A stretch of 64,000 nucleotides of DNA from Carcharhinus amblyrhynchos (taxonomy: Eukaryota), in assembly GCA_965287045.1 (NCBI GenBank), contig OZ336881.1, positions 45,694,001 through 45,758,000 on the forward strand, written 5' to 3'. Every line of letters starts with the position of its first letter. The first letter of the stretch is position 1. Positions 19,960-48,130 of this stretch are shown one piece after another. A model generated the notes under the pieces. That model was not told the DNA's origin. It was given only the letters and a program-made list of their open reading frames with translations, and ran no database searches. The position numbers and the translations under genes were made by a program.

Positions 19960-20570
19960 CAGGGTGGCAGGGGAGGAGGTCAGAGATGTCTGTGGTGGGG
20001 GGAAGATGTGCCAGCAATGTCTGTAGTGGGGGGTGTGGTGAGGAGGGAGCAGGGAAGGGGAGGCCAGTTGATGTCTGTGGAGGGGGGGCTGAACAAGAAG
20101 GCCAGCGATGTCCAATGACATAGGTGGGGGAAAGGGAGGCCAGCGATGTCTGTGTGGATGAGGGGGAGGAAGGGAGCAGGTTAGGGGAGCCAGCAATGTC
20201 CGTGAGGGGCGGAAGGGGTGCCAGTAAATTCCGTGGAGGAAGGGAGTGGGTTAGGGGAGCCAGCGATGTCCGTGAGGGGGGGAAGGGGTGCCAGTGAAAT
20301 CCATGGAGGTGGGGAGGGGGAAGGGGAGGCCAGCGATGTCCGTGGAGGGGGGTGGAAAGGAAGACAGCAATGTCTACTGACACAGGTGGGGGAAGGGGAG
20401 GCCAGCAATGACCGTGATGGGGTAAGGGATGCCAGTGAAGTCCGTGAAGGCGGGAAGGGGGAAGGGAGGTCAGCAATGTCTGTGGAGGGTGGGCAGGAGA
20501 AGGGAAGGCCAGCAGTATGCGGGGCTGGCGTGAGACCAGCGATGAGGGCAATGATGTCTGTGGAGTGTTG
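19960..20570. repeat. G-rich tandem array, about 16 units of about 30-45 nt, core GCCAGCRATGTCYGTG
   Basis: Core visible at about 20010, 20063, 20101, 20139, 20189, 20259, 20329, 20401 and 20469, separated by G/A-run spacers. Confidence 0.9.
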
Positions 20571-21207: not shown

Positions 21208-21360
21208 GGAATCTGAAACACAAACAGAAAATGCTGGAAAATCTCAGCAGGTCTGACCAGCAGATCTAAGAAGAATCATCCAGATGCGAAACATTGGCTC
21301 TATTCTCTCTTCACAGATGCTGTCAGACTTGCTGAGATTTTCCAGCATTTTCCATTTGTG
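21208..21360. repeat. Collapsed fold-back hairpin of the 1311 family
   Basis: cacaaacagaaaatgctggaaaatctcagcaggtctgac pairs with gtcagacttgctgagattttccagcattttccatttgtg. Confidence 0.8.
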
Positions 21361-22239
21361 ACCTTCAGGAAAATGTTATTGGCAGACTTAACCTGAACTG
21401 CAGATAACCAAATACACAGCACTGAGCTCCAATGCATTGATGTCCTGTTCTTTCTGACTTGTGTAATGCAATCTGCATAGATGTTAAGTATTTGCCATTT
21501 GATTTGAATCCAAAGTTAGGATTTCTTTCTTTTAACACAGGTTTCAGACACATTTGGCTCAAAAGAGAAGATAAATCTTTATTAATCTCACCTCATCTAA
21601 ACCTCATTGTTGTTCTACTTGATCTCAGAATAAATTAACCTTTTTCTTTGGAAAACGGCCTTACTTTGTTCTATGTATAATTTTTTCTAACATAAGGAGT
21701 GATGTAGTCTGGGAGAGAAAGTTAGTCTAGTGTAAATAGATCATTGTGTCCCATGATTGAATTATACTGTGCATTTAATTATCCACTTTGAACAAGAAAG
21801 GTTTCATGTGATTTGAGAAAACAATTCAGGAAGTCAAATGTTATACTACCAATACATTTGTTTTAGGTTTTTTTTAAATGGTAGATCAAAATTTTACATT
21901 TTTATGCTTTATCAAAACATATGTTTTAAAGATTGATTGATAGAGTTATTGTGATTCTTTAAAAATGGTTTGAAATAGCAGTTTGTGTTTGTATACAAAA
22001 CACTTTAGGTCCAATGAACAGGGTTTTAAATCACACATGCCAACAAAACTAAGAAGTCCAATAAAGTAAATAGCCTTTGCAAACCACAAACAATATCTAA
22101 AGCAGGGTGCCAGATAACAGTAAAAAATGTCAATATTTGATGACAAGGGTTTAGAAATATTTGAAAGTGAAGGTTATTATGTCAACATGATTTACTGAAA
22201 TGCTTTCAAGATTTTTGTTCCCTCTTCATTTTTTAACAG

Positions 22240-22443
22240 AAGCAACAATACTGAGCTATGATGGAAGCAAGTTTATGAAAATCCAACTACCTGTTGTAAT
22301 GCACACAGAAGCAGAGGATGTATCACTGCGATTTGTGTCCCAGCGAGCCTATGGAATCTTAATGGCAACAACGTCCCGGGATTCAGCAGATACTCTGAGA
22401 CTGGAACTTGATGGTGGTCGTGTCAAACTTACCGTCAACCTAG
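22240..22443 (+). CDS. NRXN1: Neurexin-1-alpha internal coding exon (start of LNS4 domain), 204 nt, phase 1/1
   Basis: Translates (E)[67 protein letters not shown](G/D). KIQLPVV, GILMATT and KLTVNL match NRXN1 as I recall it rather than NRXN3 (KIIMPMV, GLLVATT, KLMVNL). Acceptor ttttaacag ends at 22239 and donor gtaaca starts at 22444. Confidence 0.93.
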
Positions 22444-27397: not shown

Positions 27398-30300
27398 ACT
27401 TTTGAAGGTTTTTAAATGTAGAAAAGGAAAGGATTGTGACTTTTCTTCTAATAATTACACTTGCAGAAAAGTCCAATGGCAGTCATTTTGCCAAACTAAA
27501 TGCTGAAAGAACTCTGAGATTGGTATCAACACACTTAATCGCATGACTAATATAACAGCAGTTTGAGAAATGCTCTGAAATAACATTATTTTAATGTCCT
27601 AATAACGTAATATTAATGCTATATTTGTTAACATAATTTTCCTGTTCCACAAAATTGTTGCCACTTTATCAACCTGTAAACAGACAGAAAAGTTTATTTA
27701 ACAAATTCACTAAAAAAAATCAAGATACAATAACCTTTCAATATTGCTTTCCTAATTAAATACTAACACATTTGTATTGTCTTCAAACAACTCTCTTGGA
27801 AATAATTTCTGTGAATGCCTACATCCATCCTATTTTAGTCAAGTACGGAAAGTAACTGAAGATAAACTTTTGTAAGATTATCATTCATTAAAAATGTTAA
27901 TAAAGAAGTGTACATGTCTCTCAAATGTAACCTACCATAATGTGATAGTTTAGACATAAGCTTAATTTCTCAGAATTTTCATGATAGGAAAGGATGCTCC
28001 CATCTAGTCATGGATTTTTCAGACACATTTTTGAACTGCATTGTTTGTTGGTTCTGTGTTATTTTATTACTATACCTATATATATGGTGCAATGAAAACA
28101 TTTTAAAATTTAGTAGGATATACACTGTTGGTGAGATGATAAGTTCAAAGTGTACTGATCACGTTGTGTACATTAGCAATTACAAACCCACTACAGTCTC
28201 TTACATGACACATTCCCGAGAGGGGACCAATCCTTTTTGATGACTAATTCACAGGCATTCTTAACCACTTGGGATATGATTAGCACCCAGAAGACAGAAA
28301 ATGCACATTACATCATCAAATTTGGACAACTGAGGCAGCAGTTATAACAACTGATGCCACTGTTTACCTTATATCTGACATGAAAAAATGGGGTTGGTTT
28401 GTTGGATTCTATCTAGAATAGCCATAATATGTTTTCCTACCTAAGCAATTACTTTTATGAAGATGTGTTTCCTTTATATGTCTCTAAAAGGTTACTTTTG
28501 CACTTTCTCCAAAGGGAAATAAGTGTTATTTCACTCCTGGTATTTCTTCTCATTTTGAATGAGGAGTGCCTCAGGGGCACATGCATTCGTTCACCACTAG
28601 GAGAGCAATATAACCTTAAGAGCCTGCTTGAATCTGGTACAGGTGTATGCTTTCTCCACTGCTCTGATCTAATTTAAAGTGATCTAGTTTAGAGTCTTTA
28701 TGCTGCCAATTCTCAAACACAGTTTGCAAGGGAAAGGAAGGTCAGAAATCAGGAAGTAATTTGAAACCGATGTCGACCCTCGAGTTGTTCATTCACTACT
28801 GCAGCCTCAGCTAAAAGTATGGAATTAGCTGCAGTGATTTAAAGATACATTTTCAGAAGCCTAAATCAACACTCCAAACACCATAGGTTCAGGTAAGTGA
28901 AGTCTTGGGAATTATTTTGTGTGGATTTGGTAGTAGTTTGTAAATTATTATAGCTACTCACTTCAGTACTCTCTCTCGGTAGCACAGTGCCATTGTGACA
29001 ATTATTCTTCTTTGTACCATGATTCATTTATAGTTTGTGTATAATGGAGCAAACTCTAATAATGAGAAGTTAGCTACTACATTTTGCCAGGTTCTTTTCG
29101 ATGACATTACTTAACTGGCTTTGTTTTGGCGTCAACATCCATGGTCTCCTAATTCAGTTGGAACTCGTAGCAATTACCCTGACTTTCATGTTTCCTGTTT
29201 GCAGTTAGGTGTAAGAAGCAAAGAAAATTTCCTTCTTTCATTGAAATGTTTCTCCTTTGCCTTATGATAGTAAATCAGGTCCAAAACAGAAACCCTGCAG
29301 ATGTGAAGCACCGATTATCAGTTGCAAACAAATCACCCTGATTAATTAATTCTAGTCATTAGAACTATCACTGCAATTTTAATTTTGACAATGGTAGCTG
29401 ATCTATAAGGAAACTAACTTTTCAAAGAAAATCATATCTAGTCACATAGGTAGGAAGATAGTTGATTATTTTGGATAATAGGCTGCTCATCCACAGAGAG
29501 ATAATATTGGGATAAACTAGACATGAGGAACATTAAAGACACCTGTTGCTCATTTTCTAATAGGGTCTACATTCCATGGCATGAGTCAAGGTTGAGAACA
29601 GCTAACAAAGTTGATACCCCACAAAACCCTTCCTCTCTATTTTCCTAATTTTGCCAACATTTGAAACCTCTCTGCGGATGCAAAATGGCATATTCCTTCA
29701 TATTAAAGATATAATTGACATATGCTACCAGTTTGCTTCATAAACTTCTGGAAATGTTCAACAAAAGTGCTAATGCCTGCTCCACTACATGTTATAGATT
29801 CTGTGGCATAATTTGAAGCAAAGTAGGAATTTAGTTAACATTCATCCCTCAGGGTGACTAAAAAAGATTTATTGATCAAGCATCTCGTTGCTGTTTATGA
29901 GATCCTGTCATCCAGAAAATTACTGCTTTACTGCTTATATAAGAATAGTCTCAGTATTTCAGAATAATATATATATTCATATACTTCTAGCATGGTGTAA
30001 AACAGGTTTTTCTTTGAGCTAAAATGATGTGGAAAAATATAGATTTCATAAATCATCTTTATAATTTAGGTGTGACATTGTATTTGAAATCTTTGCAAAT
30101 GGTTCATTCCAACAAATTGTATTACTGTTTAATATTCTCATTATGATGCACCATAGGGTTATCAGATACAATTTTTGTTTAGTATTTACAGTAAGTTGAC
30201 CTTCTAAACTAAATTATGAACAATTGTGAAATGTTCTTTGGAAGCCTGAGGGATATTTGTTGTGAGTATTTAAAATTTCACTCTGGCATTATAAATAACA

Positions 30301-30560
30301 CACTTCTGATATTGGATGTTAGAGCAGATTGTTTCTTCAAGCACAGGAAGTTTTTTTTGCTATATGAAACCTATATTAATTTCATCTGAGAGTGCTCAAA
30401 GTTAGCATTCTGTATCCCAGACAAATATGTTTACTTATTTGACAAGACAAGGTCGATCTTGGGTTAGATGATGTTATTTATCTTTATTTTCAATTTTGTA
30501 ATTGCCATAAATCAAAATTCAAGAAGCATTAATCCTATATTTGCTGTGACGTAAATGATA

Positions 30561-31030
30561 CAGTAAAAAGTCTGACAACATCAGGTTTTAGTCCAACCTA
30601 TTTATTTGATAATATACTCACAAGCTTTCGAGGTTAGCCCCTTCATCAGGTGAATGGAGAGTTCTGGCCTCAGACAGAGCATATAAAGCACAGACAGTTT
30701 AGAGATTACTGATTAGAATGCGAATCCTTACACCTAACCTGCTGTTCAAGACCTGAAGTGGCTGATAATTTGAGTGGAAGGAGCACTGATCACAGTTTAA
30801 AGAGATGTGTATTGTCTCCAGACAGTACAGTAAGTGAGGTTTTGCAAACCCAGGCAAGTCACGGGGGTTACAGATAGTGCGACATGAACCCAAGATCCCT
30901 GTTGAGACCGTCCTCATGTGTGCGGAACTTGGCTATCAGTCTTTGTTCAGCGACTCTGCGCTGTCGTGTGTCGTGAAGGCCGCCTTGGAGAATGCTTACC
31001 CGAAGGTCAGAGGCTGAATGCCCGTGACAC
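30561..31030 (-). mobile_element. Young Penelope-like element 3' fragment: intact GIY-YIG C-terminal codons plus terminal repeat
   Basis: 31026 to 30868 reads HGHSASDLRVSILQGGLHDTRQRRVAEQRLIAKFRTHEDGLNRDLGFMSHYL* without disablements; CpGs are retained. Confidence 0.88.
30618..30653 (-). ncRNA. Minimal type I hammerhead ribozyme motif in the Penelope terminal repeat
   Basis: Minus strand UCAC-CUGAUGA-A-GGGG-CUAA-CCUC-GAAA-GC-UU-GUGA: intact core, stem I UCAC/GUGA, stem II GGGG/CCUC, palindromic AAGCUU stem III region. Confidence 0.7.
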
Positions 31031-32479
31031 CACAGACTTGATTTTTCTCGTGATGCAGTTCATCAGGAGCATTTTTCACCTTTGTTGCCAATGCAGTAAT
31101 GTAGTAGAGTGGATGGCCAGATTGATTGTGCTTCATTTGTATCGCAGATTTTGGGCGAGTTCTGCATGGTGGATGATCCTAGCCTTCAGAATATTGCTCG
31201 AGTGAAATCTAAGTAGATAAGTCTTACAGACTGGGATGTTCACAGATCCAATTCTCAATCCATACAGAGTTAATTGATCTAAGTGGATGGTGGTCCCAAT
31301 GACACAACTGCCCTTAACAGTAATAGTACAAGGATTTTACTTGACACTGCCAGGCATGTTTTTGCTGGAGGTAGCATGTAAAATAGGTCAGGTGGCTAGC
31401 CCACCGTCATCCTGCTCACCCTAAGCTGACATCAAAAATGTATTAGTTCAGTAAGTGCTGAAATTGGCAGTATGCCCACCAAATAAATTAGTAAGGCCAA
31501 ATTATGTTTGCAGGCAAGGCTGAATACCATGCTGCCTAGCCAAACTATGGCTGATAGCTGGTATGGCATGAAAAGGGAAAACCAACTGATTTTGGGAGGG
31601 ATGATCTGTGGTCATTGAGATCTCTCCCTCTTCAAAGACATCACTCCCCTCCTTTCTTCTATGTCACCTAGCCCATTTATCCTGCACTTCAATTTCCTCT
31701 CCTCCCTCCCCTCTCCCCAAATTGCCTTCTTACCTTTCTGGGGCAGCCATCACTCTCCTTCTGGCAAGGCCAGAAGCGTCTCCATTACTGAGCAATACTG
31801 ACCAATCTGATTGGCCAGCAACTTCCAAAGTGAGGATGATCTCTCACTGAGTAGCAGAAATCCACGTTCAATCAATTTAGCCCACCCCAGTGACCCATGG
31901 CCACGCAGTGGGCTTGTTTTAGTCGTGTCAGCTTCTGGCCTCTTCCCGCTGTAAAATGCAGCCCAAGGATAGGTAAAGCTGTCAACACTCCTGATCATTA
32001 TCTAGCAATCCCTGCAAGAAACCGGAATGTGTGGCTTAAGAACAGAATTGTCTTCATTAGGTTTACACCATACTCAAATAGATGACGGGTGACCATTGCC
32101 AAGAATCACATTTGAGATTTCTAGTAATAGAAATTTGAATAACATTCAAGAGCACAGCTGTGCCATCAAAACCATTTGCTCTAGCAAGAAGTCAAACCTC
32201 TATGAGAAGAGGAGATGGAAGGGGAAGAGATGGGGGGAATTGGTAAAATAGGGGTAAAGTATTGTCTTTATTTGAGTTTTAACATAAATTAGCTTTATAT
32301 CAAGATATTTGCAAATATTGATGAAAATAATCCAAGTTCCAATGCACAAGCAGTTTGTTCTTTTTCCTGCGTAATGTACTTGCCTTAACATTGCAAAGCA
32401 TCCAGTCACTTTGGAGGATGATTGACATGGACTGAAAACACTCTTAAAAATTCAACTGTTTATATTTTAGACTGAAAAA

Positions 32480-33500
32480 TCAATGTGAGGGTCACTCCAA
32501 GGTAGACATGATATAAGATCACAGGAATAAACTTTTATCTTGATCGGGCAAAATGCTGTCCCAGTTTACTGGCTCTGCAGTAAAGAAAACTCATCGTAAT
32601 ATGATGTGCATGCCTTATCCAAAATATGCTCCATGAAAAATACAATCTTGTTGGCAATGCAAACAATCATCTCCGATTACATCAAGTCCACTTTGAACAG
32701 AGGTACCAATCTCATGTCAGCATTCTCTTCCAGAAATGGAGGCTCAAACCAAACTCCCATAAAACAACAGTCACCACATTTCATCTTGATAACATACCTT
32801 AAATGTGACCTTCTGTGGCAACTTTGTATGACATGTTCCTAGTCTAACTTATCTGGGAATAAATGGACTGCAGTTAACCTTCCAAGACCACCTGAAGAAA
32901 CCACCAAGATGCAGTCAAGAGTCAACTTGATCCAGAAACTGGCAATCACCAGCACCACAGACTTGAGTGATGGCCCTCAAGTACTCCGTAGCTGAACACT
33001 GTGTACCTGTATGGATCAGAAGAAACTACACTCAGCTGGTTGATGTCCAACTGAACACTATAATAAGATGCATCACTGGAACTTTGAAGTCGACCCCAAC
33101 ACCCTGACTACTCATGCTGGCACACACCACCCCTCCAACCTGCCTCCAAACCAATCTGCCACAATATAGTAACTCTCTATGAATTTCAGCAAATTGAAGA
33201 AAGCAAATGCCTCCCCATCCACCAGGTTCTCATCAATATTCCCATCTCATAAGCCACTGGACCTATGCACCCCTGGCAAAGTGATTTCAACCCTGAAGAA
33301 GCTTGGAAAAAATGAGAAGACACAAACCAACACCTCATGAAAATCCTGACAAGAAGATCCTAGCTTTAACCTTCCCAAAAACTCATGGGCATCCTTAAAC
33401 TACATCAATACAAACCATGGAAGATGCACAAATGGAAAATTGAAAACTCTCCTGTATGCAACTGTGGTCACCAAGAACAGACCATGGAACATACAAAGTA
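32480..33500 (+). mobile_element. Degenerate Vingi/Ingi-like LINE (RT and C-terminal region)
   Basis: SRVNLIQKLA and HCVPVWIRRNYTQLVDVQLNTIIRCITGTLKSTPTP*LLMLAHTTPP fit the Vingi/Ingi-type pattern as I recall it. Confidence 0.65.
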
Positions 33501-33589
33501 TTCCTTGACTTGTGTATTGCTGTAGTGCCTCGTTTATTTTTCATCAGTTCTGGTATAATATCCCAACTTAACCATCTTGATATAAAATT

Positions 33590-35420
33590 ATAATTGTTGG
33601 TCCACACCCAGTCAGAAATTTTGGCACATTATGACCCAGAACTACCAACCATACTAACGGCAAATTCATCATCAACAGGACTCGGGGAGTATTATTTCAA
33701 GCCCAGAGAGATAGCAAACATAAATCAGTTTACTATGCTTCAAGGCCAGAAACAGAACCAAAAGGCTTCATACTAAAAATTCTCAACAACATTATGGGAT
33801 TGTGGTTCAAAATTGAGACTGATCATAAGCCACCAGTCACTCTTCAGAAAATAAAATAAACTGTGAAGATGCTGCCCAGAACCTAGCCGTTCAGATTAAA
33901 ATTGAGATATGGCTCCATAAGTGTGTTTAAGCGAAGTGCTAAGCAATTGCAGACACACTGTCACAGAGACCATCAGAAGGAATCAAACAAGAGGATTTAT
34001 ATTTCACACAAGGAGTTAGAAGCATTCATACCTCTAATTACCAATACTTAACCAGCTACTGCAAAAATGGTTGCAGGGAATAAAACGAGCACAGCAACAA
34101 GATGCGAAATGTCTCCTGATAAGCGAATATTGTCTGGAAGGATAGCCAGATTATGTCCCCTACTGCAGTAATACTTTGAACTGCGCAAGCACCTCCACAA
34201 TCATCGACAATTTATTAGCCTTCAATGAGGTAATAGTTATACTGCAAGCACTTTAATTCTATTTTTTAAAAACTTCAATGAGGGATAGCAAAACATCATG
34301 TGTGAGCCCAGCAATCAATTTGGTTGCCAGGCATTATTCATTCTATAGAGGGCTTATTTCTAAATGTCTTGGGGTACAGTAAAGTGCAAAAAGGCTGCCA
34401 TCAATTTACTTTTCCATCAAGGTCGTGTGAGTGCAAGGAATATATTATTTAATTTTGAGGGGGAAAAAATTCTTCTTGTCATTGATTGCTACTCAAGTTA
34501 TATTAAAGTAAACAAATTGCAGAGCTTCAAAAAGAAGCAGTCATTTAATCACTGAATAAAATTTAGATAATACGTAGCATTCTGGGCATTGTAGTGTCAG
34601 ACAATGGGCTGGAATTTAAGAATAAGTTATTCCAAAACTTTGCAAAGGAATTCTGACTTGTTCACGTAATCCAGCTGACCTTGTTATCTCCAAGCAAATG
34701 GAGAGGCTGAGAGAAGTGTACGAAGAATGAAGACCGAGTTACCAAATATTAGTACTACAAATGATTTCTTGCCATCTGAGTTATCGATGGGAAAGAAATG
34801 GAGAAAATAACATTCATCACTGCCACACAAACTTCAACCCAATATCACCACAAGCGTTACAGTACAAGGAAGAACAGAGAATTGTGAAAAGGCTTGTAAC
34901 TTTAATCAAGTGAGTTACCAGTACTGAAGCTTGGGAGTGACACTTGGAAGATGGATATGAGGTAAAATCATTGTGGTCCCAGATGACTATAGGCAGTGAC
35001 TGGTGGCAATTTAACCTGAAGATCACCACACCTCAGACGAGGGGCAAGGTTGAGAAGGCAGGCCTTCATGAATAACCTCTGCAGATACGAAAATGAACCT
35101 GTGCTGTTGGTGTTACTCTGCATCACTAACCAACTATCCTGCCAACTGAGCTAAATTGACCCAATATGAGAACAACAGAGGAGGTATAATCATTGAAATA
35201 ATCCTGTTAGCTTGGTTATGGAGTTAAGACTGAACAGGGTATCATAAGGAGAAACTGTAGTAGCTTAATACCCTTTGAAAGAAAGCTAACAGAAACTTTG
35301 AGCTCACTAGTCGGATTCTGGAGAGAAAGAAGAAGCAGAAAGCCAAAGCTCGACAGCCATCCAAGAGTAGAACAGTCACACTGACAGAAGAGAAAGTACA
35401 AAATCTCCTCAATTTGAGAA
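33590..35420 (+). mobile_element. Degenerate Gypsy pol remnant (RNase H and integrase)
   Basis: LAHYDPELPTILTANSSSTGLG, FKIETDHKP, LLVIDCYS, VVSDNGLEF, and PCYLQANGEAERSVR. Confidence 0.82.
34960..35165 (-). mobile_element. tRNA-derived SINE of a different family, nested in the Gypsy remnant
   Basis: Minus strand begins ttagctcagttggcagg (A box) followed by caggttcattt (B-box-like). Confidence 0.55.
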
Positions 35421-35649
35421 AGAGATCAGAACAAGGTTAGGGAATTTTGGTCAAGGCATCATGGAGACTAACCCTGTGAAGTCTGAAAGTATGGGAGTAG
35501 ATGTATGAGGATGTAAATATGATAGGGATAAACACTTGGAGGGAGATGGAAATGTGAAACAAAGAGTTAATATCAGAAGCATACGATGTAACATCAGATG
35601 ACTGAGGGAAATCTGGAGGGAGAAGTTCCATCCTTGTGCTGAAGTCCCA

Positions 35650-36997
35650 AAATTACAAGCCTAATTAAAAAATCATGGTTTATGAAATTATAGTCTTGAG
35701 AAATTTTGGGAAAAAAATGCCCCAAAAAATCCCTGTCCAGACCTGCTTGCAAAAAGAAACAGTATTGAAGATTGTAGTTGCAGATATTAGATCACGTGGT
35801 GGGACCTCTTCATCAGAGTGGTTCTCTCTCCCCCTGGCTGTGCTGTTGCTCAGTGTCTGAGAACAAAACATTTGGAAAGAAAAAATGGGGATGAGATGGG
35901 GGAAAAGCAAGAGGTCCATGGTCACACCATCAGCAGCTTATTGTTCATGACAGGATGAGTCTGAGCAAGGAGTTGTGTGCATGCATAAGGTAGTAATATG
36001 CCATCATCCTTAATGTTCTCACTAATATTAGTTTCCACAGACTCAGTTTCCACTGACCCCATATGGCAGAGGCCTCTTTGTACCCCAGTGGATCTGCTCT
36101 GTGTCTTCCTAAAGTGTGCTTTCTTGTCCTGCAGCAGTGAAGGAATAACATCAGTGATTGTGTTGCATTGTGTTTGGATGATATACTAGCCACTCTCAAT
36201 AGCTAGAAGTTTGCAAAGGCCGTGAGAGCTGGGTTTATGACTGTCATGTTTGCAATTTGTGTGAGTCTGATGTTTAGTATCAAAGTTTTGGATCGCGAAT
36301 GGGATCTGTGGTCACCCCAGTATTATGATTCATCAGCTCAATGTCCTGAATGTCTGGAATTGCTGATGGAAGAGCAGCAGGTGTTTGGTGCTTCAGCAGT
36401 TGGTGGTGCAATGGATAGTAGATGTGATGTGAAGATGCATTTACTGACCTTGACCACTTGCATGAGGTCATTACATTTCTTACAACACTGCTGCCAGTTT
36501 CTTGGCACCAGTTCAGGATCTAATCTATCTGGTCACCTGCTTCCATTTCCTGTTGAGTGTAGTCCTTTGGGCTTCCCCGTCCATGGCGGACCCCTTCCAA
36601 CCACCTCCAACACCAAGGCCCGCAGAACCACATCCAGGAGCCTTCTCTGTGCTTCATATTCTTATTTGGAATTGCAGCCCAGTACAGACTGCTTTTAATA
36701 GGAGGAGGTTGTCTGTTCCATTTTCTCTCTGTGAATGATGCTAATATTCCTTTTGAGTGTTAAGGATCTGCTTGGAACAATGCTACAATTATTTAACTAA
36801 GAAGGCATTAGAAATGTGTGGTCTGCCCCACACATTTCTGTTGCCTCCTCCACAGCAACAGGTGTGGGCAGGTCTCAAATCAGGACCTCCATATCCCAAA
36901 GATTTCTTTTCCAGAGTCTTGGACAGTAATATCTGCCTCACTCTTTTCTCTAGCTTCCAGTGGGATTGGAAGGTTGACCTGCCATAAAAATTTAGCC
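35650..36997 (-). mobile_element. Harbinger-type remnant with a two-exon Myb/SANT gene
   Basis: TAA plus ggctaaattttta TIR-like start at 36997. LVPRNWQQCCKKCNDLMQVVK|gtcagt ... ctgcag|DKKAHFRKTQSRSTG has the same exon structure as 18300-19815. Confidence 0.7.
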
Positions 36998-37239
36998 TTA
37001 GTGTTATAGTGTAAAAATGCAGTGTTTTCTTTTGTGCAAACTGTTATATGGTTGTCTGGAGGCTTGTATGTTTGAGCACAAACTATTTATTGGTAGCCAT
37101 AACGATGTGTTGCCATTTAAGTTGCCTTTCTCTTCAGCAATTATTTGCTTTCTCCAGACACCATTGGTTTGTTATGTTCTTTCCACAGGGAATGTTTACT
37201 CCATTCATTCCCAGAATCGTCTCCTATTTTCTTTTTCTG

Positions 37240-37930
37240 TAAGGTTTGCCATGTTCTTTCGAGAGGCTGATGCTTCAAAAGTGGAACCTTAATTTCTGTC
37301 TGTTTCACAATTTCAGGTAAATATTTGTTCACTTCCAATCTTTTTAAAGCATATTACCCTTTTCATTCTACTCTCGTGAGTTCAGTAGCTTTGTTTCAGA
37401 GTTAATTGCAAATTCCTTCTTCAAGCTTAACAACTTCAGCTAAGCATTCAGTTCCTTTTGGAGGCTTTATTACAGTGTCACTAACTGCTCTTTAAACTTA
37501 TTCAATTCACTTGTTAGATCCTCACTCTGTTTCTTAGAAATTTCCTTATCTGCTTTTAAAGTCTCAATTTGCTCTTCCAGATTGTGCATCACATATTTCA
37601 TATTCTTCAGATTGGATAAAAGTTCAATAATTTCATTGCTCTTTTCATGATGCAGTTCCAATATTTCAGCAATATTGTTCTGAATCATCAATTCTTTTTC
37701 CTATTCCAGGCATTTTTCACAACGATAGGTACTTCTGATACTTGAAGTTTATCTGGTTCTAAATTTTAATTTTCTGTATGTGAATATTGGTTCTTCATGC
37801 TGAGTAGTTTTCCCATTAGCAAACCCTAATTCTTGTGTGTTATCCTTCAACTCACATTCTTTAATTTGACTTCTGCTAATTGTTTCAAAGATGATTCACG
37901 TTCCTTTGTAAAAACTTTTACTTATCCTTT
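37240..37930 (-). pseudogene. TPR: Intronless, decayed TPR (nucleoprotein TPR) N-terminal coiled-coil fragment
   Basis: EKCLE*EKEL..HEKSNEIIELLSNLKNMKYVMHNLEEQIETLK..EDLTSELNKFKEQ..LQKELNA*LKLLSL and EVNKYLPEIVKQTEIKVPLLKHQ align by recall to TPR [64 protein letters not shown] and [23 protein letters not shown]. Confidence 0.8.
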
Positions 37931-37959
37931 CAACCATTCAACTTTTTCTTGACATTTGC

Positions 37960-39170
37960 AGTTATGATTTTCATTTCAACCAGATCATTTTTCAGCAACT
38001 CATTGATTCAGGATGTTTGTGCTATCCAGTTTTTTTTTCTTCCAGTTCTTCAAGCTTTAACACGCGCTTTACATTTTTCAATATTATTTCTGTCTTTCAT
38101 TTCTCTGCCTGTCGGTTTATCCTTGCCTTTCAGTTTGGTTTTTGGTTTCACTCTTAGCCAGATCTATCTCACTTGAAGTTTTGGCTTGTTTTAATTCTGT
38201 AATTGTGCTAATCCTGGCTTCATTGTTGGCTCTCAAGTGAAAAGTTTTACAAATTTTCTTTTCATCGCTTCTCCTTTTCCATGCAGCTGTTATTTTTCTG
38301 ATCTTCAGTCTCTTTCTTGTACATCTGGTTTCCTCCTGGAACATTGTTGAGTCTTCTCTGCCAACTGGTTCATCAATTCTTTCAGAGTGATATTAAATTT
38401 ATTTGTTCTCTTATAATTTTCCGAGGCACAAACTTAGACTATGAGGATCCAGAGAAGATTCTTCAACAGGGAAGCTCAATTGGTTTAAACTTGAGTTTTC
38501 TTGTAAATCAACAGAGTCTCCTTGAATTTGTTCTGTTGTTCTTCCTGCTGCTCAAGATGCTCTTCACTTCTTTGTGCTGCAGAATGCCTTTTGCATTTTG
38601 TTTGAAGGAAATTTAGCTGCTTACTTCCTTGTTCGTCTTTCGCCAACTCACACTATGCTTCAGTGCATTGCATTATGATACTGATAGTTCTAATACAGCT
38701 TTTTCTGAAGTAGTATTAAACATCATTTTTTTCTAGGGCTACGTATTGATTCTTCATTGAGCCCTCAGGGCAACTATGTCTTTGAGTATCTTTTCTGCCT
38801 GCTGTTGTGCTTGGCTGTACTTGGCTGAACTTTTCAATGTGCGTTTTGATTTTTCGACAATTGAATTCAAAGTTTGTATTTCCTCCTTGTACTTTTCTGG
38901 AGATGCGTAATAATTCTGCTTTGATTCAGATTTTCACTTACTCCAATCTTCCCAGTATTCAATCTTACTTTCTTCATTTTATCTTCACAAAGATTATTGT
39001 TCAGTTCACAAAGAGCTTGGTTCCTTGAAGACTTTAGTTTATTGTGTTCATTGTTTGTAACCAGTCTTGATCTTCAAATTCAGCTTTGATACTGTTTCAT
39101 TTCTTCTTCCTTTTTCTTTCAGCAGGGTTTGTTTATTTTGGGTTACATCAGAGAGTTTCCTTTCAGATAT
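37960..39170 (-). pseudogene. Decayed UACA-family (UACA/RAI14/ANKRD24) coiled-coil fragment
   Basis: ERKLSDVTQ; YASPEKYKEEIQTLNSIV...ALRAQ.KNQYVALEK; KFNITLKELMNQLAEKTQQC; LKQAKTSSEIDLAK. These resemble recalled UACA VPPEKHEKEIIALKS..NQYVP, KFKATEKELKDQLSEQTQKY and LKKLETREVVDLSK. Confidence 0.62.
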
Positions 39171-39255
39171 AGGATATAGTGACATGGGAGATAGTCCAAA
39201 ACAGATTCACCAGAGGAATGAAAGGATTATCTTATCAAGCGATACTAATTAGTCT

Positions 39256-39715
39256 GGTCTGTATCCCTTGGAGTTTAGAAAAGTAAGGGTGTCCTTAATG
39301 AAAGATATAAGATCCTGAGGAGGTTTGACAGTGTAGGTGGTGAGATGTTTTCATTACTGGGAGAGTCTTGAACAAGGGGACATATCTACATGTGAGATGT
39401 TTTCATTACTGGGAGAGTCTTGAACAAGGGGACATACCTACAAAATAAAGGGCCAGCCATTTAACACTGAGGTGTGTAGAAATTTCTTCTCACGGAAGGT
39501 GGTGAATCTCTGGAATTCTCTGCCCCAAAAGATGTCTGGATCATTATCGAAGGTGGAGGTGAATAAATATTTGCTTGATCAAGCAATAAAGGGTTAAGGG
39601 GAAATGACATAGAAAAGTAGTTGAGGCCGGCATAGATCAGCTATGATTGTATTGAATGACAGGGCAGCCTTGAAGGGCCAAATGGCCTACTCCTGCTTCT
39701 ATTTCCTATGTTCTT
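39256..39715 (+). mobile_element. CR1 LINE 3' fragment with an internal tandem duplication of about 45 bp
   Basis: NFFSRKVVNLWNSLP motif; gagatgttttcattactgggagagtcttgaacaaggggacata occurs twice (about 39343 and 39394). Confidence 0.85.
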
Positions 39716-40084
39716 CATTCACAGCCAGCTGCTTGCTCTATACTGCCACCTGTTGTTGCAGTTCAGTTAATGTCTCAGGATTTTCAAAAATGATGGGGGG
39801 GATTCTCTGGGTACATTAGCTCCTATTGCAATGGCCCAAAGAATCAGGCATCAGCACAAAAATGGGTTTTGCATGGGCGCCAGAGCCAATGTGATATACT
39901 CAGCCCCACACGCTGTCCGCAATTTGATTTCCATCCAGAGTGGGTCGGAACCTAATAAATACCCAAATGGTCTCTTTACCATGTCATTAGTGGGCTTGGA
40001 GTCAATTCAATGACTTCCTGCTATGCAGCTGCTCCTCCAGTTAGATTGGCACCAGGCAGGTTTCACTACAGATCTTTTTGATTT

Positions 40085-42690
40085 AGTATCACGTGATAGT
40101 AAAGTATTGTTTCTTGCACACTATGCAGAAAAAGCATACCATTCATAGAGAAGGAAACGAGAGAGTGTAGAATGTTCTGTTACAGCCATAGCTAGGATGT
40201 AGAGAAAGATCAACTTAATGTGAGGTAAGTCCATTCAAAAGTCTGATGGCAGCAGGGAAGATGCTGTTCTTGACTCGGTTGGTACGTGATCTCAAACTCA
40301 ATGGAAGAAGGTGGAAGAGAGTATGTCCAGGTTGTGTGGGATCCCTAATTATACTGGCTGCTTTTCTGAGGCAGCAGGAAGTGTAGACAGAGTCAATGGA
40401 TGGGAGACTGGTTTGAGTGATAGACTGGGTTTCATCCATGATCCTCTAACATTTCTTGCGGTCTTGGATAGGGCAGGGGCCATACCAATACAGCTGTAAA
40501 GAATGCATTTGCACAAGCTGGTGAGAGTTGTAGCAGACATGCCAAATTTCCTTAGTCTCCTGAGAAAGTAGAGGCATTTCACATGGAGGGACCAGGACAG
40601 GTTATTGGTGATCTGGACAGCTAAAAACTTGAAGTGCTCTCCCATTTTTACTTCATCCCCACTAATGTAGACAGGGGCATGCCCTCCATTATGCTTCCTG
40701 ATGACTATCTCCTTTTTGTTGACATTGAGGGAGAGATTATTGTCATCGCACCAGTTCACCAGATTCGCTATCTCATTCCTGTGCTATGTCTCGTCATTGT
40801 TTGAGATCTGACCCACTACAATGCTGTCATCAGCAACTTGAAAATCGAATTGGAGGGGAATTTAGCTACATAGTCAAAGGTGTATATGAAATATAGTAAG
40901 GGGCTGAGGACATAGCCTTGCAGAGCACCGGTGTTCAGGATGATTGTGGAGAGGAATTGTTGCCTATCCTTACTGACTGCGGTCTGTAGGTTAGGAAGTC
41001 TAGGATCCAGTTGCAGAGTGAGGAGCCAATTCCCAGGCCATGAAGTTTGGAGATGAGTCTCATAGGAATAATGGTGTTAAAGGCTGAGTTGTAGGTAATG
41101 AATGGGAGTCTGACATAGATGTGTTTGTTATCCAGGTGTTCCAGGGTTGAGTGTAGGGCCAGGGAGATGGCATCTGCTATGGACCTGTTGTGGCAATAGG
41201 TGAACTGTAGTGGATCCAAGCAGTCTGTGAAGTAGGAATTGATTTGTGCATGATTAACTTTTTGAAGCACTGCATAATGATGGATGTCAGAGCCACTGGA
41301 TGATAGGCATTAAGGCACGCTGCTTGGCTTTTCTTTGGTACTGGGATGATGGTTGTCTTGTTGAAGCAGGTAGGAACCTCTGATTGTGTTCAGAGGTTGA
41401 AGATGTCTGTGAATACCCCCGCCAGCTGGTCCTTGCGGGGTCTGAATGCTTGTCAAGGTACCCCATATGGGCCCGTTACTTTCAGTGGGTCAACTTTTGA
41501 GAAAGCTGTCCTGATGTCGGCAATAGTGCGCCCGGATATAGGTTCATCCGAGGCTTATGGGGTGAAGGGCATGCTCTTGCTGACCCCTTGCTCAAAACGG
41601 ACATAAAATGTGTTGAGTTCAGTGGGTGGGGTGCATTGGAGCCAGTGATTTTACTGCCTTCACCCTGTAGCCTGTTATGCCTTGCAGACTTTGCCATAGT
41701 CAGTGGAAATCTATGTGATTAGCCTGGGATTCTAGCTTGGTCCAATTCTGCTTTTTGGCATCTTTGATCTCTGTAGATCATATCTTGCTTTCCTGTAAAG
41801 GTCAGGGTCATCTAAATTGAATGCCTCAGACTTGGATTTCAGGTGGTGATATCCCTGTTTATTCATGGTTTCTGGTTGGGAATCATGTGGATTTGCTTCT
41901 TTGGCACACAGTCTTCTAAACACTTAGTGGTGAAGTCAGTTACTGTAGCAGCATACTTGTTTAGGCTGATCACAGAGTTTTTTAAATACTGACCAGTCTA
42001 ATGATTCTAAGCAGTCCCATAGGAGATCATCCAATTCCTCAGACCGACATTGCATGGCTTTCTTTGATGGATTCTCTCGCTTCAGTTTTTGCTTATAAGC
42101 TGGGAGCAGGAGCACAGCCTTGTAGTCTAATTTTGCCAAATTGTGAGCAGGCAATAAAGCGGTAGGCACTTCTGATATTTGTGTAGGCGTGGTCTAGGAT
42201 GTTTGGACCCCTGGTAGGACAAGAGATTTTGGTGATGTCTTGAAAGGACGCTCTTGAGCTTGGTCTGACTTGAAGCCCCGACCATGATGAACTAGGCCTC
42301 GGGACGTTTCAGCTATTTGTGGCGGTGTATACGTCATCCAGCACGGTCTTCACGTTTGTGTGGGGTGAGATGTAAACTGCTATCAGGGTAACAGAGGTGA
42401 ACTCCTGCGGAATGTAGTAGGGGTTGCATTTTAGTGTCAAGTATTCTAGATCCAGGGAGCAAAAACTATCTATGTCTAGGCATCATGAAGTGTTGATTAG
42501 AAGTGGACCCCTCCACTAGTCTTGCCTGAGACCTCTGTGTGGTCCATTCAGTGGATTGAGAAGCTGTCTGGTTGTCAGGCAAAGTCCAGTGAAGAAGGAG
42601 TGAGCCATGTCTCCGTGAAACAAAACACATAATAATCCCCCAGTTCTCTTATAACAGTGAGTCTGGCTTTAAGTTCCAGTGATTTGGATA
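40085..42690 (-). mobile_element. Rex1/Babar-clade LINE (endonuclease and RT), degenerate, about 2.6 kb
   Basis: [42 protein letters not shown]; WCDDNNLSLNVNK; LYFLRRLRKFGMS; CFTETWL endonuclease motif near 42620. Confidence 0.9.
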
Positions 42691-45224
42691 TTTGCTAGGT
42701 AGGGAGGGGAGCCTTGAGACCACGTTGTTTCACTCTCACCTGCAGGTTTTCCATACTTTCTGGAGTGTCTTCACAGTCGCAGAATTGCTGTGTTGGATTC
42801 CAAGGGTCCAGGAGACACCATCAACCCCTCAGCAAAGAGGGGTATTCTCCCCCATCCCCTCACTTATCTCTGCCCTCAAGCCCCCTTCACCTTCAGACTC
42901 CCAAATAGGTCTCATTTCCTCTTTTACAAAACAGAAAACATAGACTATTAATCAGGCTTAACATGTGGTTAGGATTAGTGAAACAACTTCAGATTTATTC
43001 ACAGCTAAGGCTGTCACTGAAGGCTTTTGAAAATTAACCAACCAAAGTCTTCTCATAAACTATCACCTGAAGAGAGTGGTGGAGTCTGAGGGGGGAAGAG
43101 GAGCCTGAGTGCGAGTCTGAGGGGAAAGGAAAGCCGTGAGTGGGACACTGAGTTGGGTTGGGTCATGTCACCCTCGTGCCTATATGGTGTATGAGGAGAG
43201 GGGGGCATTATCTGTTATTTGTGAAGCAGATGACCCTTTTTGGTAAGATGTTGGTAGTGCTCCCTACCAACAGTGGAGCATTTAGTCAGTGGAGGATGGA
43301 GTTTCAATTCCATTTTTCTTTGGGGCAAGGGAGCTGGCATACAATTGTGGAGATTGGGGTGATCATTAAAAATGGTGGCATGGCCGGTGGGTCTTCCATA
43401 ATGCATAAATTAACATCATCGCCAAGTGAGAGAATCCCATCTGATAGACACTGCCAACACCAGTGGGAAACTGTCCCAATTCAGGGAATCACAGCTGGGT
43501 TTTTTTTTTAAGACTTCCACATGATTCTGTGCCTCATTGCCACAACTGTGTGGTTTGTTTGGATATTGTCTTTTTCACTTTTGTAGCTTCATCATGGTGT
43601 TTCCTATCCCTCTTTTTAAGTTGTTCCCAATCCACAACTTGAAAACTAAAACGTTTTTAATATTTTTTCAACTACGTGAGTTCAAAGTGGTAGTCTTAAC
43701 TTTCCATCCGTGGCTGTTTTCCATTCGAGGGAAGTGGAGCTTTAAATGCTTTCCTTTCTTCACAATGGCTCTGGAGTATTTTTTTTCTGTGTCTGTTCTT
43801 CCCACATTTGCAGTGTTTTGATGAAGTTATAATGCACTGGTGGGGCTGTTTTATTTTCCACATTATTAACTCTGCAGGAAACATTTAAGACATAAGGTTC
43901 AGATCACTTTGCTATTTTTAAGCCTGAGAATCAAATGGAAGATGATTTTCAGCTCTACCTGTTGTTTTAAAACCCTTTTTTTTGTCGATTTGAATTAAGC
44001 TTGGCCGCCACGTGTAATGAGGCCAGTTGTTGACCCATTGCAGCAGCTTTCCTGCAGCTGTGATCTGGATTTCTAGCCTTGGTGGATGTCCATTTTAAAA
44101 ATGTAACCTTCACCCTCTTATTGTAGTAAGCTCACCATCTTGTGATTTGGCTGGGTTTCTTGACTCTATATTCATTCAGGTTCTTATTTTTATCTACGCA
44201 GTGCATTATTCTTTTGTCATTAAGTCTTTTTTTCCTCGATCTTGCTCACCATTTTACTGATCAAGCCAGGTCTCTTGACTGTGCGCACATTCAGGCCTGA
44301 CAGTGGAGCTTGCTTAGCCAGTCTCCAGCTCTGCCTTTGACTAGGTGCCCTTCTCCCAGGTCAGTCTGCAGTTTCTTTACTTTATAAGCTTTGGGATTTT
44401 GGAGTCTTTCCAACACTGCTACCATGTTGTAATGTTGTTTGGTTTCTCACTAACTGGTCAAGAGGTTTGTATGATTGAACATAAACCACTTGTGGGAAAC
44501 CCATAACTATTTACATCTCCAAGCCCTGCATGGGTGCCATCTCTATGCTGGCTCTGTACACACAGTCTATCATCATGTGACTCTACATCAGACAGTGGGC
44601 ATTACAGTTCCAAAATCCCACATTAGCTGTGCCCTGCCTGAACACCTTAATACCACAAAAGCTCCAAAGAAAACATAAATCAATCTCCCTCTCATTTAAT
44701 TGTTAAAAGTGATGAATATCTGAGATTATTGTGCTCACAAACTTTGTGCAAGGTTAGAGGTTAGAAATTAGGAGAAAATGTATATTTATTCTCTCAAGGC
44801 TGCGGAATAGTTAAAAACCCAGTGAAAGCATTTTATTTTGCTTCAGTCAGCAGCTTTAAAGTTTCCGGGAAGTAGGCATAAATGGATCTCTTTTGCTCTG
44901 AGTATTTTATAATTTCCCGATTAAACTTGTCCAACTGTGCTGCTAGATTTATTTTCAGGCCAGTGAAGGAAGGCAGTTTTTTTTTCTCTCTGTAAATCAT
45001 GAAGCAGTGGATGTACAGCAAGTTTGTGATCGAATAATCATGCATCAAATCTGGATGGACCAGACGTTTTTTTTCTTGCTCCCGTTGCTTTTGTAACTCC
45101 TAATATAACTTTCAACCCAATGTCACTTTTGAAATTCTAGATTGTTCTGATCCTTTATATTGTTAATCCTTTTTGTCTTCTCCCAATTTTTCGTTTCCTC
45201 CAAGAAGGTGAGACTCACTGCTAC

Positions 45225-45400
45225 CGTAAGAACATAAGAAATCGGAGTAGGAGTACGTCATCCGGCCCCTCAGGCCTGCTCCAACAGTCAATAAGATCAT
45301 GGTTGATCTGATGTGACCTTGACTCCATTTTCCTATCTGTGCCCCATAATGCTTGACTCCCTTGTCAACCAAAAATCTGTTTGATTTGACCTTGAATATA
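45225..45400 (-). mobile_element. CR1 LINE 3' end
   Basis: taagaacataagaaat tail plus the CR1 3' UTR stem region. Confidence 0.7.
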
Positions 45401-47229
45401 CCCTAAGGTCTCAGATCTGGGAGTTACAGAATTCATAGAATGGAAGTGCATATTTAAAGTAATTTTTAATAAAATCAGAAAATGTTGGAAACTTTGACAT
45501 AAAGTGTCATTCATCTGAAAGGTTGGTGGAATTTAATTCAGGTAGTGGCATTCTCGCCTGCCGCTGGAAGACAGATGAGAGTTCCATGCCACTTTTCTGG
45601 GAAGTTCTGCTATATTAAAGAGCCAAATAGGCAATGAAAATGCCAGGGTTTTCTCCGGGATCTGAAATCGTATCCTCTAAGAGCTGCTGGCGAATCAGAG
45701 GCCTGCAGCTCTTCATTGGATGCAGCCACCAGGAGCATTTGAAGCTGTCTGCAATTCACCCAGCAGATGCCCAGGCCATACGTGAGTGAGGACAGAATGG
45801 GGATTGCAGGATAGAGTTCATGGGAGAGGGAATATAGAGAGCTTGGAGGCAAGGGTAAGGTGACACTCATTAGACACTCCCTTCCCAATACTGAGTCTTT
45901 TCATTGGGCACTGAGTGGCTGATAACAAGGGTGTGTCGCAGAGGCCATTACCAAACCTGAATATTCAGGTTCTTCACACTAATTGTCCATTTGAGGACCT
46001 CAGCTGTTGTTGGGAGAAGGTGAATACAAACCTCTCCGCCCAGATTTCTGTGGGAAGAGGGCTTCCCACTCCACATCCTCCACTCTGATTAACTGCCCCA
46101 ACTCCTACCACTCCCACTCTGTCCCCAGGCTTATCTTGTAGAGGGCATTAAATTCTACCCTTTTTTATTCTCGCCATACAAATTCTGCTTCCATTGTGTA
46201 TTTCCAACATTTTTTTTGTTTCCAGCATTTGTCATATTTTATATGAATGCTCAAATATTTTTAGATGGTTTAAGTTGTTCATGTTTATAATTGTTTAATT
46301 GTTTCAGTATTGGGGTTTGAACTTTGAAAAATACTTTATTAATATTACCAATTTTTCTCAAAGTGCAGCGTTACTGAACTGTTGCTCATTAGAAATGTTT
46401 ATTGTTCTAAAGCTTTCTTAGACTGATCATTCATGAGTATCAACATTGCAGTAGCTATATCAGGATTCAGCAGTAAGTGAAGATGAAGCTTTCAGTGAGG
46501 TCAGAAATGAGAGAAAAGACATTTCTCACACCTTCAACCAATCTTTTGCTGCTGACAATGTCCATGAGTCAATGAAAGATGATCCATTTACATTTCGTAA
46601 AATTCCAGTTGTAGCAAATTGAAAGTTTTGGAGAAGATTAACTTGAATGGATGGATAACTTTGTACGTCAACCGTTGATGCGTGAGGTATAGAGTGTGCT
46701 AAAGTCCGGCTGCACCACTCAACCCAAACAATGTTCCTAAACCCCAAAACTCCACTGTCGTTGTCTTTTGCTGACATGTGGTCTGATGTGGCATGTGCCA
46801 AAGCTACTTCCCTACTAGCCTTCGTAAAATAAAAATGAAACAAGCAAATTTGAATTTTCAATGTTTTACATTTTAGCCAATTGAACCGCATGCTTTCTTT
46901 TATAAGGTACACTGAAAACGTAACATGAAGGACTTGAGTATCAAACATTGCTGCATTTATGCCCAGCTTTATAAGCAGTGTATACATAATGAAGTACATC
47001 TTCCTCACTATTGTTGGATAGAGATTGTTTTATTCTGATTGTACCAACAAACCATTATTTATTTTTGCTCTTCAGGATAGGCAGCTACTTCAGTCAAAAT
47101 ACCAAATTATTTATTTCAGTACAAATTCTTCAGCAGCTTTGGAACATCAAAGATCACAGGATCCTTGCTGTAGTACTGAGGACCTGCGCTCAGAATTGCT
47201 GCAAATTTAGCTGAGCGTTCCAATATCCA

Positions 47230-48130
47230 TACAACATGAGAATCTACCCATAAAGGTAGAAAATTGCCTATGACCTGCTCATAAAAAAGCAGGACATAAC
47301 CAATCTGGCTAATTACCTCCTCATCATTCCTCTTTTAATCATCAGCAAAATGAAGCAAGGATTTATAAACAGTACTGTTTACAACACCTATGCAGAAACC
47401 AGCTGCCTACTGATAATCAATTTAGTTCTAGCGTAACCACTCTGCTCAGAATGCATTACAATCTTTATCCAAACATGGAAATAGAATTGAATTCCAGAGG
47501 TGAGGTGAGAGTGACTGCTCCTGATGTTAAGGCAGCATTTTACCAACTGGTGGCACCAAGGAACACAAGTAAGTCTGAAGTCAATGGGGATTAGAGGGCA
47601 TGGTTCTCCAGTTGCCATACCCAGCACAAAGGAAGATGATGTTGGTCACTGGCTATCATTCAAACTACAGGACATTGCTGCCAGAGTTTCTCAGGGTACA
47701 TTGAAATCCCAAATACTTTCAGGAATGGCCTCCACTTGAGTATGTGAGGTCAGAAGTGTTGATGTTCACCTCCATTCACAATTGATCAGGTAATCATGTA
47801 GTCCATGTGGACATCTAGCAAGACCTGGATAAAATTCAGGCTTGCTTGAGTTGATAAGCAGGAAATAACATTTGTGCCACCTCCTCTTGACAGTCACAAA
47901 AATTATTAATGCACTGATGGGGTAATCAATGATCAGACACTAAACTTGACCAGCAACGTAAATGATGTGGCTGCCGAAGCATGTTAGAGACTGGGTATTT
48001 TGTAGCAGGTGGCTCAAATCATGATTCTCCAAGGTTTCTTTCTCTCATCTACAAGGCACAAATTATGAGTGTGATGGAATAGTATTCACTTGCCTGGATA
48101 GATGCAGCTCCAACAACATTCAAGAAACGC
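47230..48130 (+). mobile_element. Highly degenerate non-LTR RT fragment (clade uncertain)
   Basis: NLANYL..LLIISK, RVSQG and YKAQIMSVME*YSLAW remnants. Confidence 0.6.

What the first reader, a model, noticed from the sequence alone, without database searches (positions are those of the whole stretch)
37240..39170. Intronless antisense chimera joining UACA-like and TPR-like coiled-coil sequence inside the neurexin intron
Seen: an A-rich minus-strand stretch of about 2 kb with no intervening repeat or intron. It reads first as UACA-family coiled coil (about 39170-37960) and then directly as N-terminal TPR (about 37930-37240), with internal deletions, stops and frameshifts. Known: TPR and UACA are unrelated multi-exon genes, and this part of TPR is spread over several exons in mammals, so an intronless copy implies an RNA-derived origin. 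Inference: either a template-switch chimeric retrocopy, or a fossil of a once-functional fusion gene or mobile cargo. The substitutions look largely conservative and keep the heptad character, which hints at a period of protein-level evolution before decay. I know of no described UACA-TPR fusion.
Basis: partly seen in the sequence, partly recalled or inferred. Interest (0 to 1): 0.75.

Follow-up and report, generated by a model that had tools for sequence, protein, structure and literature searches.

The report
Shark repeat built from TPR mRNA
This stretch is a broken, intron-free copy of part of the nuclear-pore gene TPR joined to a second, unidentified coiled-coil sequence, and it is one of many scattered copies, likely spread long ago as one unit by a jumping element in sharks.

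Summary
The stretch is real but it is not a one-off chimera. It is a dead copy of an old dispersed repeat. TPR similarity is confirmed at 37772-37389 (about 40% identity; 0 of 200 heptad-block shuffles reach it) and crosses TPR exon borders without introns. The UACA label for 39165-37965 could not be confirmed: no database hit, only a weak coding signal (3 of 100 shuffles reach it). Contigs from four sequencing runs show a single-copy 3' flank, but depth peaks of 23-53 times that level over both halves. Other loci carry both sides in the same order at about 80% identity. The same locus exists in relatives about 7% diverged, and a catshark protein is the closest database match. Substitutions look neutral, not conservative, and no intact member was found. 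Best reading: spliced TPR mRNA was joined once to a second coiled-coil mRNA (likely UACA family) during reverse transcription, then amplified as non-autonomous cargo, most likely by an LTR-type element, and then decayed. The carrier is not identified. I found no description in ten literature searches; repeat libraries could not be checked.

The parts
36980..39170 (-). Body of the repeat copy: A-rich decayed coding-like sequence, multi-copy; ends approximate
   Evidence: Depth 1.9-53 times the single-copy flank in 23 of 23 bins from 37060 to 39175 in four runs
37389..37772 (-). TPR N-terminal coiled-coil remnant, intronless, 4 stops in the 119 codons of 37745-37389, a 10-residue deletion
   Evidence: tblastn 36-41% identity to P0005/P0006/P0007; 0 of 200 heptad-block shuffles; Pfam PF25481
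37267..37344 (-). Continuation in another frame, matching the catshark protein after a short spacer; that a long stretch of TPR is missing here is recalled, not tested
   Evidence: 58% over 26 residues to P0004; 1 of 200 shuffles
37775..37965 (-). Junction zone; weakly TPR-like; spanned by contigs of other loci
   Evidence: 10-17 of 200 shuffles for three TPR/Mlp homologues; records 5, 6, 16 cover about 37816-38009 at 17-19% other letters
37965..39165 (-). Upstream half: decayed coiled-coil-like coding remnant; UACA-family by recalled resemblance only
   Evidence: Frame-path score z 2.0, 3 of 100 shuffles; no hit; no match to the N-terminal TPR sequences held
37032..37127 (-). Short 3' motif with a diverged same-strand copy 7.4 kb upstream
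   Evidence: nhmmer E 0.0011, 0 of 60 shuffles; 74% over 54 nt
44420..44578 (-). Second copy of that motif; terminal-repeat remnant, piece of another copy or unrelated repeat
   Evidence: loose ends at 37054 and 37092 resemble its continuation by eye
39171..39718 (+). LINE 3' fragment (CR1-type label recalled) with a 52-nt tandem duplication, abutting or interrupting the 5' side
   Evidence: Depth 24-577 times the flank over 39176-39330; tandem repeat 39340-39442; no Pfam hit
39716..39790 (-). Possible upstream continuation of the coiled-coil half beyond the LINE fragment
   Evidence: Read by eye; not significant (33 of 100 shuffles)
36692..36967 (.). Single-copy 3' flank: not part of the amplified unit
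   Evidence: Depth 1.0-1.3 times unit in X1, X13, X15; no cover in X7
22239..22442 (+). Neurexin-1-alpha-like exon (host gene context)
   Evidence: PDB 3qcw residues 657-724, E 3.4e-38

Best explanation
The stretch is a broken, intron-free copy of the front part of TPR joined to a second coiled-coil sequence, and it belongs to a dispersed repeat family that likely arose once, when a reverse transcriptase switched between two host mRNAs, and was then likely spread as passive cargo by an LTR-type retroelement. Shown: TPR homology, intron loss, many copies, both sides linked at other loci, decay. Inferred: (1) the upstream half comes from a second gene, probably of the UACA family; (2) the join was made by template switching; (3) the chimera was copied again as a non-autonomous element; (4) this copy landed antisense in a neurexin intron before the sampled lineages split, was hit by a later LINE insertion and has drifted neutrally since. 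It does nothing as a protein today.
For: Intron loss: a fish TPR exon of 165 nt with AG/GT borders (L001) lies inside the block that aligns to the window with no insertion. P0005/P0007 leave TPR at a point where P0006 and the window run on, read as a third border (inferred). Many copies: flank at unit depth, element mean 8-14 times and peaks 30-48 times (TPR side) and 23-53 times (other side), profiles correlated 0.92-0.98 between runs; 11-27 contigs share loose ends at 37579, 38339 and 38404. One unit: three listed contigs of other loci span about 37816-38009, and 2 of the 15 joints shown link the halves (37578 to 38377 and 37882 to 38922, each in 3 of 4 runs). Age: same locus at 0.6-2% and 6.4-7.6% divergence, other loci at 17-20%; a catshark protein is closer (42/82) than teleost TPR (33/82) and has the same short spacer. 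Decay: neutral-looking substitutions and stop density. Precedent: two-gene retrocopies with several insertion sites from one switch (PMC5131818, passages).
Against: No tool identified the upstream half, and no full-length TPR was held, so one-gene origin is not excluded. No LTR pair, gag or pol was found around the copy; only a 54-nt direct repeat. The linking joints have short sides (28 and 21 nt), and only 15 of 260 joints and 12 of 104 indel rows were shown. Summed contig depth is not a copy number. Tens of copies is more than the passages read report for young LTR retrocopies. Five of 41 TPR-conserved columns are changed identically in window and catshark, which may mean the source copy had already diverged.
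Confidence: 0.55

Rival explanations
1. The fusion was a translated accessory gene of a retroelement or endogenous virus, kept by selection while the element was active, for example as a dimerising TPR fragment acting at the nuclear basket on export of the element's unspliced RNA.
For: Both halves keep a coding trace on one strand. Seven of the 12 length differences shown in other copies have one and the same phase, as expected if the pieces once shared a frame. Window and catshark share derived residues. TPR restrains export of unspliced retroviral RNA (PMC3258255, passages). ERVs have captured host mRNAs under purifying selection (PMC4299795, passages).
Against: Substitutions are not conservative. 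No intact member among 1.84 billion representatives or 5302 longer candidates. No viral relative in 3 completed IMG/VR scans. In PMC3258255 the N-terminal fragment rescued retention rather than relieving it. Four of the 12 rows have the opposite phase.
Confidence: 0.13
2. Both halves come from one gene (another part of TPR, or one shark-specific coiled-coil gene), so the family is a multi-copy processed pseudogene and not a chimera.
For: UACA identity was not shown by any search; both halves have similar depth; only N-terminal TPR was available for comparison.
Against: The upstream half lies 5' of sequence that is already near the TPR N-terminus. No Pfam TPR family matches it and it does not match the TPR pieces held (32-100 of 200 shuffles). 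Its motif order recalls the UACA coiled coil (recalled, untested).
Confidence: 0.12
3. One chimeric retrocopy was formed and then multiplied at the DNA level, as cargo of a DNA transposon or Helitron or by segmental duplication.
For: Harbinger-like remnants lie on both sides (recalled labels; no Pfam hit). No poly(A) tail or convincing target-site duplication.
Against: The adjacent 3' flank, including most of the Myb-like remnant's upstream part, is single copy, so it did not travel with the unit. No long inverted arms bracket the copy.
Confidence: 0.12
4. Two separate retrocopy families lie side by side here by chance, or were mobilised by a LINE through a shared 3' tail.
For: Depth dips to about 2-10 times between peaks; the linking joints have short sides. 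Many LINEs copy RNAs that carry their 3' tail (PMC3747384, passages) and the 3' motif recurs elsewhere.
Against: Contigs of other loci cross the junction zone and the same joints recur in 3 of 4 runs, which speaks against independent insertion.
Confidence: 0.08

Closest known systems
LTR-mediated chimeric retrocopies (Tan et al. 2016, PMC5131818; maize Bs1 as cited there)
   Same: Partial, intronless host sequence; two parents possible; several insertion sites from one switch; no poly(A) tail
   Different: Far older, tens of copies, flanking LTR element not recognisable, no evidence of expression or function
Crocodilian ERVs with captured KIT-ligand or nectin3 mRNA (PMC4299795)
   Same: Host mRNA carried in several copies and shared between related species
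   Different: Those keep proviral genes and open frames under purifying selection; here none of this was found
Processed pseudogene of TPR
   Same: Intron loss, stops, frame breaks, neutral drift
   Different: Joined to foreign sequence, internally shortened, amplified as a family, no poly(A) tail or target-site duplication seen
TPR-kinase fusion oncogenes (TPR residues 140-230 fused to met, raf, trk; PMC3258255 passage)
   Same: An overlapping N-terminal TPR coiled coil is joined to another gene
   Different: There TPR is the 5' partner in somatic DNA rearrangements; here it is the 3' part, germline, non-coding
Scyliorhinus torazame hypothetical protein scyTo_0000780 (P0004)
   Same: Closest match; same short spacer and shared derived residues; likely a gene call on another decayed copy
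   Different: 153 aa, covers only the TPR-like part; its locus could not be fetched

Membership tests
TPR-derived retrocopy | Homology to TPR beyond coiled-coil bias | tested here: met
   0 of 200 heptad-block shuffles
TPR-derived retrocopy | Parental exon borders crossed without introns | tested here: met
   Two borders from fish exon L001, a third inferred from P0005/P0007; shark TPR itself not available
TPR-derived retrocopy | Disabling stops and frame breaks that are not assembly errors | tested here: met
   closest run's contigs show 1 and 0 gaps over 38339-39330
L1-type processed pseudogene | Poly(A) tail and target-site duplication | tested here: inconclusive
   None seen, but the copy is old and its 5' end is hidden by later insertions
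LTR-mediated chimeric retrocopy | Sequence from two unlinked parental genes | tested here: inconclusive
   Upstream half does not match N-terminal TPR but has no identified parent
LTR-mediated chimeric retrocopy | Flanked by LTR-retrotransposon sequence | tested here: inconclusive
   Only a 54-nt direct repeat 7.4 kb apart; no LTR pair or pol on the same strand
LTR-mediated chimeric retrocopy | Several dispersed insertions with the same structure | tested here: met
   linking pieces are few and partly short
LTR-mediated chimeric retrocopy | Microsimilarity at switch points | not testable with these tools
   Parental mRNAs not held
ERV-captured functional host gene | Open frame under purifying selection | tested here: not met
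   (one 71-82 residue segment; no codon-based test)
ERV-captured functional host gene | Proviral genes around the cargo | tested here: inconclusive
   No Pfam hit in flanks, but the same scan also missed an evident decayed LINE
UACA family | Significant alignment to UACA above RAI14/ANKRD24 and generic coiled coil | not testable with these tools
   No UACA sequence could be obtained; 0 of 88 candidates scored

The most novel reading that the evidence does not exclude
An extinct shark retroelement lineage carried a translated UACA-TPR fusion as an accessory gene, a captured piece of the nuclear basket used to get its own unspliced RNA out of the nucleus, and left tens of fossil copies.
Probability: 0.1. 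Interest if true: 0.8.

Novelty: new member of a known kind. Interest (0 to 1): 0.42.

Why it matters
It points to an apparently undescribed shark repeat family made of host coding sequence. That would be a marker of how host mRNAs were captured and spread in cartilaginous fish, and it explains spurious 'hypothetical' or 'TPR-like' gene calls such as the catshark entry. Shared dead copies are usable as neutral phylogenetic markers. If codon tests on internal branches showed selection, it would be a case of a mobile element capturing a nucleoporin that restrains retroviral RNA export, which would be much more surprising. At this locus nothing suggests function.

Tried and rejected
No genome assembly is held for the window, so copies could not be counted or aligned directly. 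Whole-frame Pfam and PDB searches found nothing. Word-based homologue searches found nothing: 367, 5302 and 88 candidates; full-length TPR lay outside their length ranges, so these are weak negatives. The Atlas gave only generic coiled coils for the catshark protein, so it is uninformative for this fold. IMG/VR scans and a metagenome DNA pattern were empty. No RNA holder was listed; this says nothing about expression. A second TPR-like copy at 43.4-45.6 kb was suspected by eye and rejected as unsupported: 60-273 of 300 shuffles reached the scores. A third copy of the 3' motif at 42457-42495 is treated as chance (E 0.55). A long lenient DNA alignment to 43.8-44.5 kb was noise. Rfam found nothing in 30000-48000. 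Maverick origin: no support; PMC8097293 (passages) reports apparent absence in the few chondrichthyans screened. Earlier scan notes: none. Structure and complex prediction were not run, as a decayed coiled coil would not be informative.

Full report
Observation. The minus strand of 37240-39170 is 43% A, above every other 1.9-kb window (31 +/- 3%, maximum 36%). It has no long frame: 43-49 stops per frame, longest run 91 codons. A neurexin-1-alpha-like exon lies on + at 22239-22442 and a short exon-like match at 26812. No later exon was found with recalled motifs, so the intronic position is inferred. The organism is not given; a cartilaginous fish is inferred from the best protein hit.

TPR half. 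One frame, read with stops as X, was searched against 1.84 billion representatives and gave 3 hits at E up to 0.001: a Scyliorhinus torazame hypothetical protein (P0004), an unnamed TPR fragment (P0005) and a teleost 'TPR-like' protein (P0006). The last two carry Pfam Nucleoprot-TPR strongly. Local tblastn places TPR at 37772-37389 with 36-41% identity, and P0004 at 37622-37389 (53%) plus 37344-37267. Heptad-block shuffles never reached the score for these three vertebrate queries (0 of 200 each; 1 of 200 for a fungal-type homologue), so this is not generic coiled-coil bias. A fish genomic TPR exon of 165 nt with AG/GT borders (L001) falls inside the aligned block, and the window crosses both borders without insertion. 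P0005 and P0007 leave TPR where P0006 and the window continue, which I read as a third border (inference). Intron loss is therefore supported, using non-shark TPR.

Upstream half. No call identified it. Pfam, PDB, the representative search (one of three frames) and a targeted search (0 of 88 candidates) were empty. A frame-path model trained on TPR composition gave z 2.0 (3 of 100 shuffles) against z 4.4 for the TPR half and no signal in controls. It does not match the N-terminal TPR pieces held. Its motif order resembles the UACA coiled coil as I recall it; this is a lead, not a test. The junction position is likewise unverified.

The main new result. Contigs of four runs were laid on 36600-39330 at 80% likeness (4 of the 22 runs listed). 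The flank 36692-36967 sits at single-contig depth in three runs and is uncovered in the fourth. All 23 bins from 37060 to 39175 are higher: means 8-14 times, minima about 2 times, peaks 30-48 times on the TPR side and 23-53 times on the other side. The tool warns that summed depth is no copy number, so I take it as 'tens of loci', backed by 11-27 contigs with shared loose ends at single positions and by 110-195 nt pieces at 80-87% identity. Three listed contigs of other loci span about 37816-38009. Two of the 15 joints shown (260 in all) link the halves in order, each in 3 of 4 runs, though with short sides of 28 and 21 nt. The same locus is present at 0.6-2% and 6.4-7.6% divergence, while other loci differ by 17-20%. 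The depth profiles correlate at 0.92-0.98. So the family spread before these lineages split. The closest run shows 1 and 0 gaps over 38339-39330, so the breaks are not assembly errors.

Selection. Over 71 columns the window's substitutions have mean BLOSUM62 -0.31 against P0005 and -0.54 against P0004; P0005 against P0006 gives +0.50. Neutral simulations at matching identity give -0.28 to -0.37, 95% range about -0.9 to +0.3. Four stops in 119 codons also fits drift. Against this, 5 of 41 TPR-conserved columns are changed alike in window and catshark; these may be shark TPR states or changes in the source copy. Seven of the 12 length differences shown (104 in all) share one phase, four have the other, one is neutral. 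That is compatible with one ancestral frame but does not prove it. No intact member was found.

Carrier. No LTR pair, long inverted arms, poly(A) tail or convincing target-site duplication was found. A short 3' motif recurs on the same strand at 44420-44578 (E 0.0011), which could be a terminal-repeat remnant; an attempt to read 43.4-45.6 kb as a second TPR copy failed. The 5' end is hidden by a LINE fragment at 39171-39718 and further insertions. Pfam is blind on sequence this decayed.

Mechanism. I commit to template-switch capture of two host mRNAs followed by re-mobilisation as non-autonomous cargo, most likely by an LTR-type element (0.55). PMC5131818 (passages) describes two-parent retrocopies, several insertion sites from one switch, and LTR mediation of 5 of 7 zebrafish cases. 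PMC3747384 (passages) describes stringent 3' recognition by many non-L1 LINEs. Capture, second parent and carrier type are inferred. Rivals: selected accessory gene (0.13), single-gene origin (0.12), DNA-level spread (0.12), separate families or LINE tail (0.08). For the accessory-gene idea, TPR restrains export of unspliced CTE RNA, but in the same paper its N-terminal fragment rescued retention (PMC3258255, passages).

Comparison and novelty. It works like an LTR-mediated chimeric retrocopy; membership is not shown, because flanking LTR sequence and the second parent were inconclusive. It fails the open-frame test for an ERV-captured functional gene such as those in PMC4299795 (passages). 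Searches for UACA with TPR, UACA with shark, and shark gene capture or retrocopies (listings only) showed no description. The library lacks most subscription journals, I read no supplements, and Dfam and Repbase could not be checked, so the family may already exist there as an unclassified repeat.

Verdict. Real feature, partly as described. A dead copy of an apparently undescribed, old shark repeat family built from spliced TPR sequence and an unidentified second coiled coil. New member of a known kind; interest 0.42.

Noticed in passing
window 33550-35100 (+): Decayed LTR-retrotransposon pol-like stretch (RNase H and integrase-like by eye; weak Pfam RT_RNaseH_2, E 0.022), opposite strand to the finding.
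   Followed up: partly
window 36400-36740 (-): Myb/SANT-like exon remnant of Harbinger type ending at a splice-donor-like site (label recalled; no Pfam hit).
   Followed up: partly
window 40100-42420 (-): Decayed LINE with endonuclease and reverse-transcriptase-like motifs by eye; Pfam missed it.
   Followed up: partly
window 43450-45100 (-): A-rich stretch of unknown nature holding the second copy of the 3' motif; no family hit.
   Followed up: partly
window 36958-36981: Run X15's contig for this locus has about 260 extra letters here that the window and X13 lack.
   Followed up: no
window 1310-1605 and 21219-21360: Palindromic MITE-like repeats with related copies at 63511-63610.
   Followed up: no
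window 19980-20500: G-rich tandem array, period about 31-70 nt.
   Followed up: no
window 32700-33500 (+): Another decayed non-LTR element 3' part by eye, into or beside which the pol-like stretch lies.
   Followed up: no
L001 1040-1204: A fish TPR exon inside a metagenome contig, i.e. host DNA in that assembly.
   Followed up: yes
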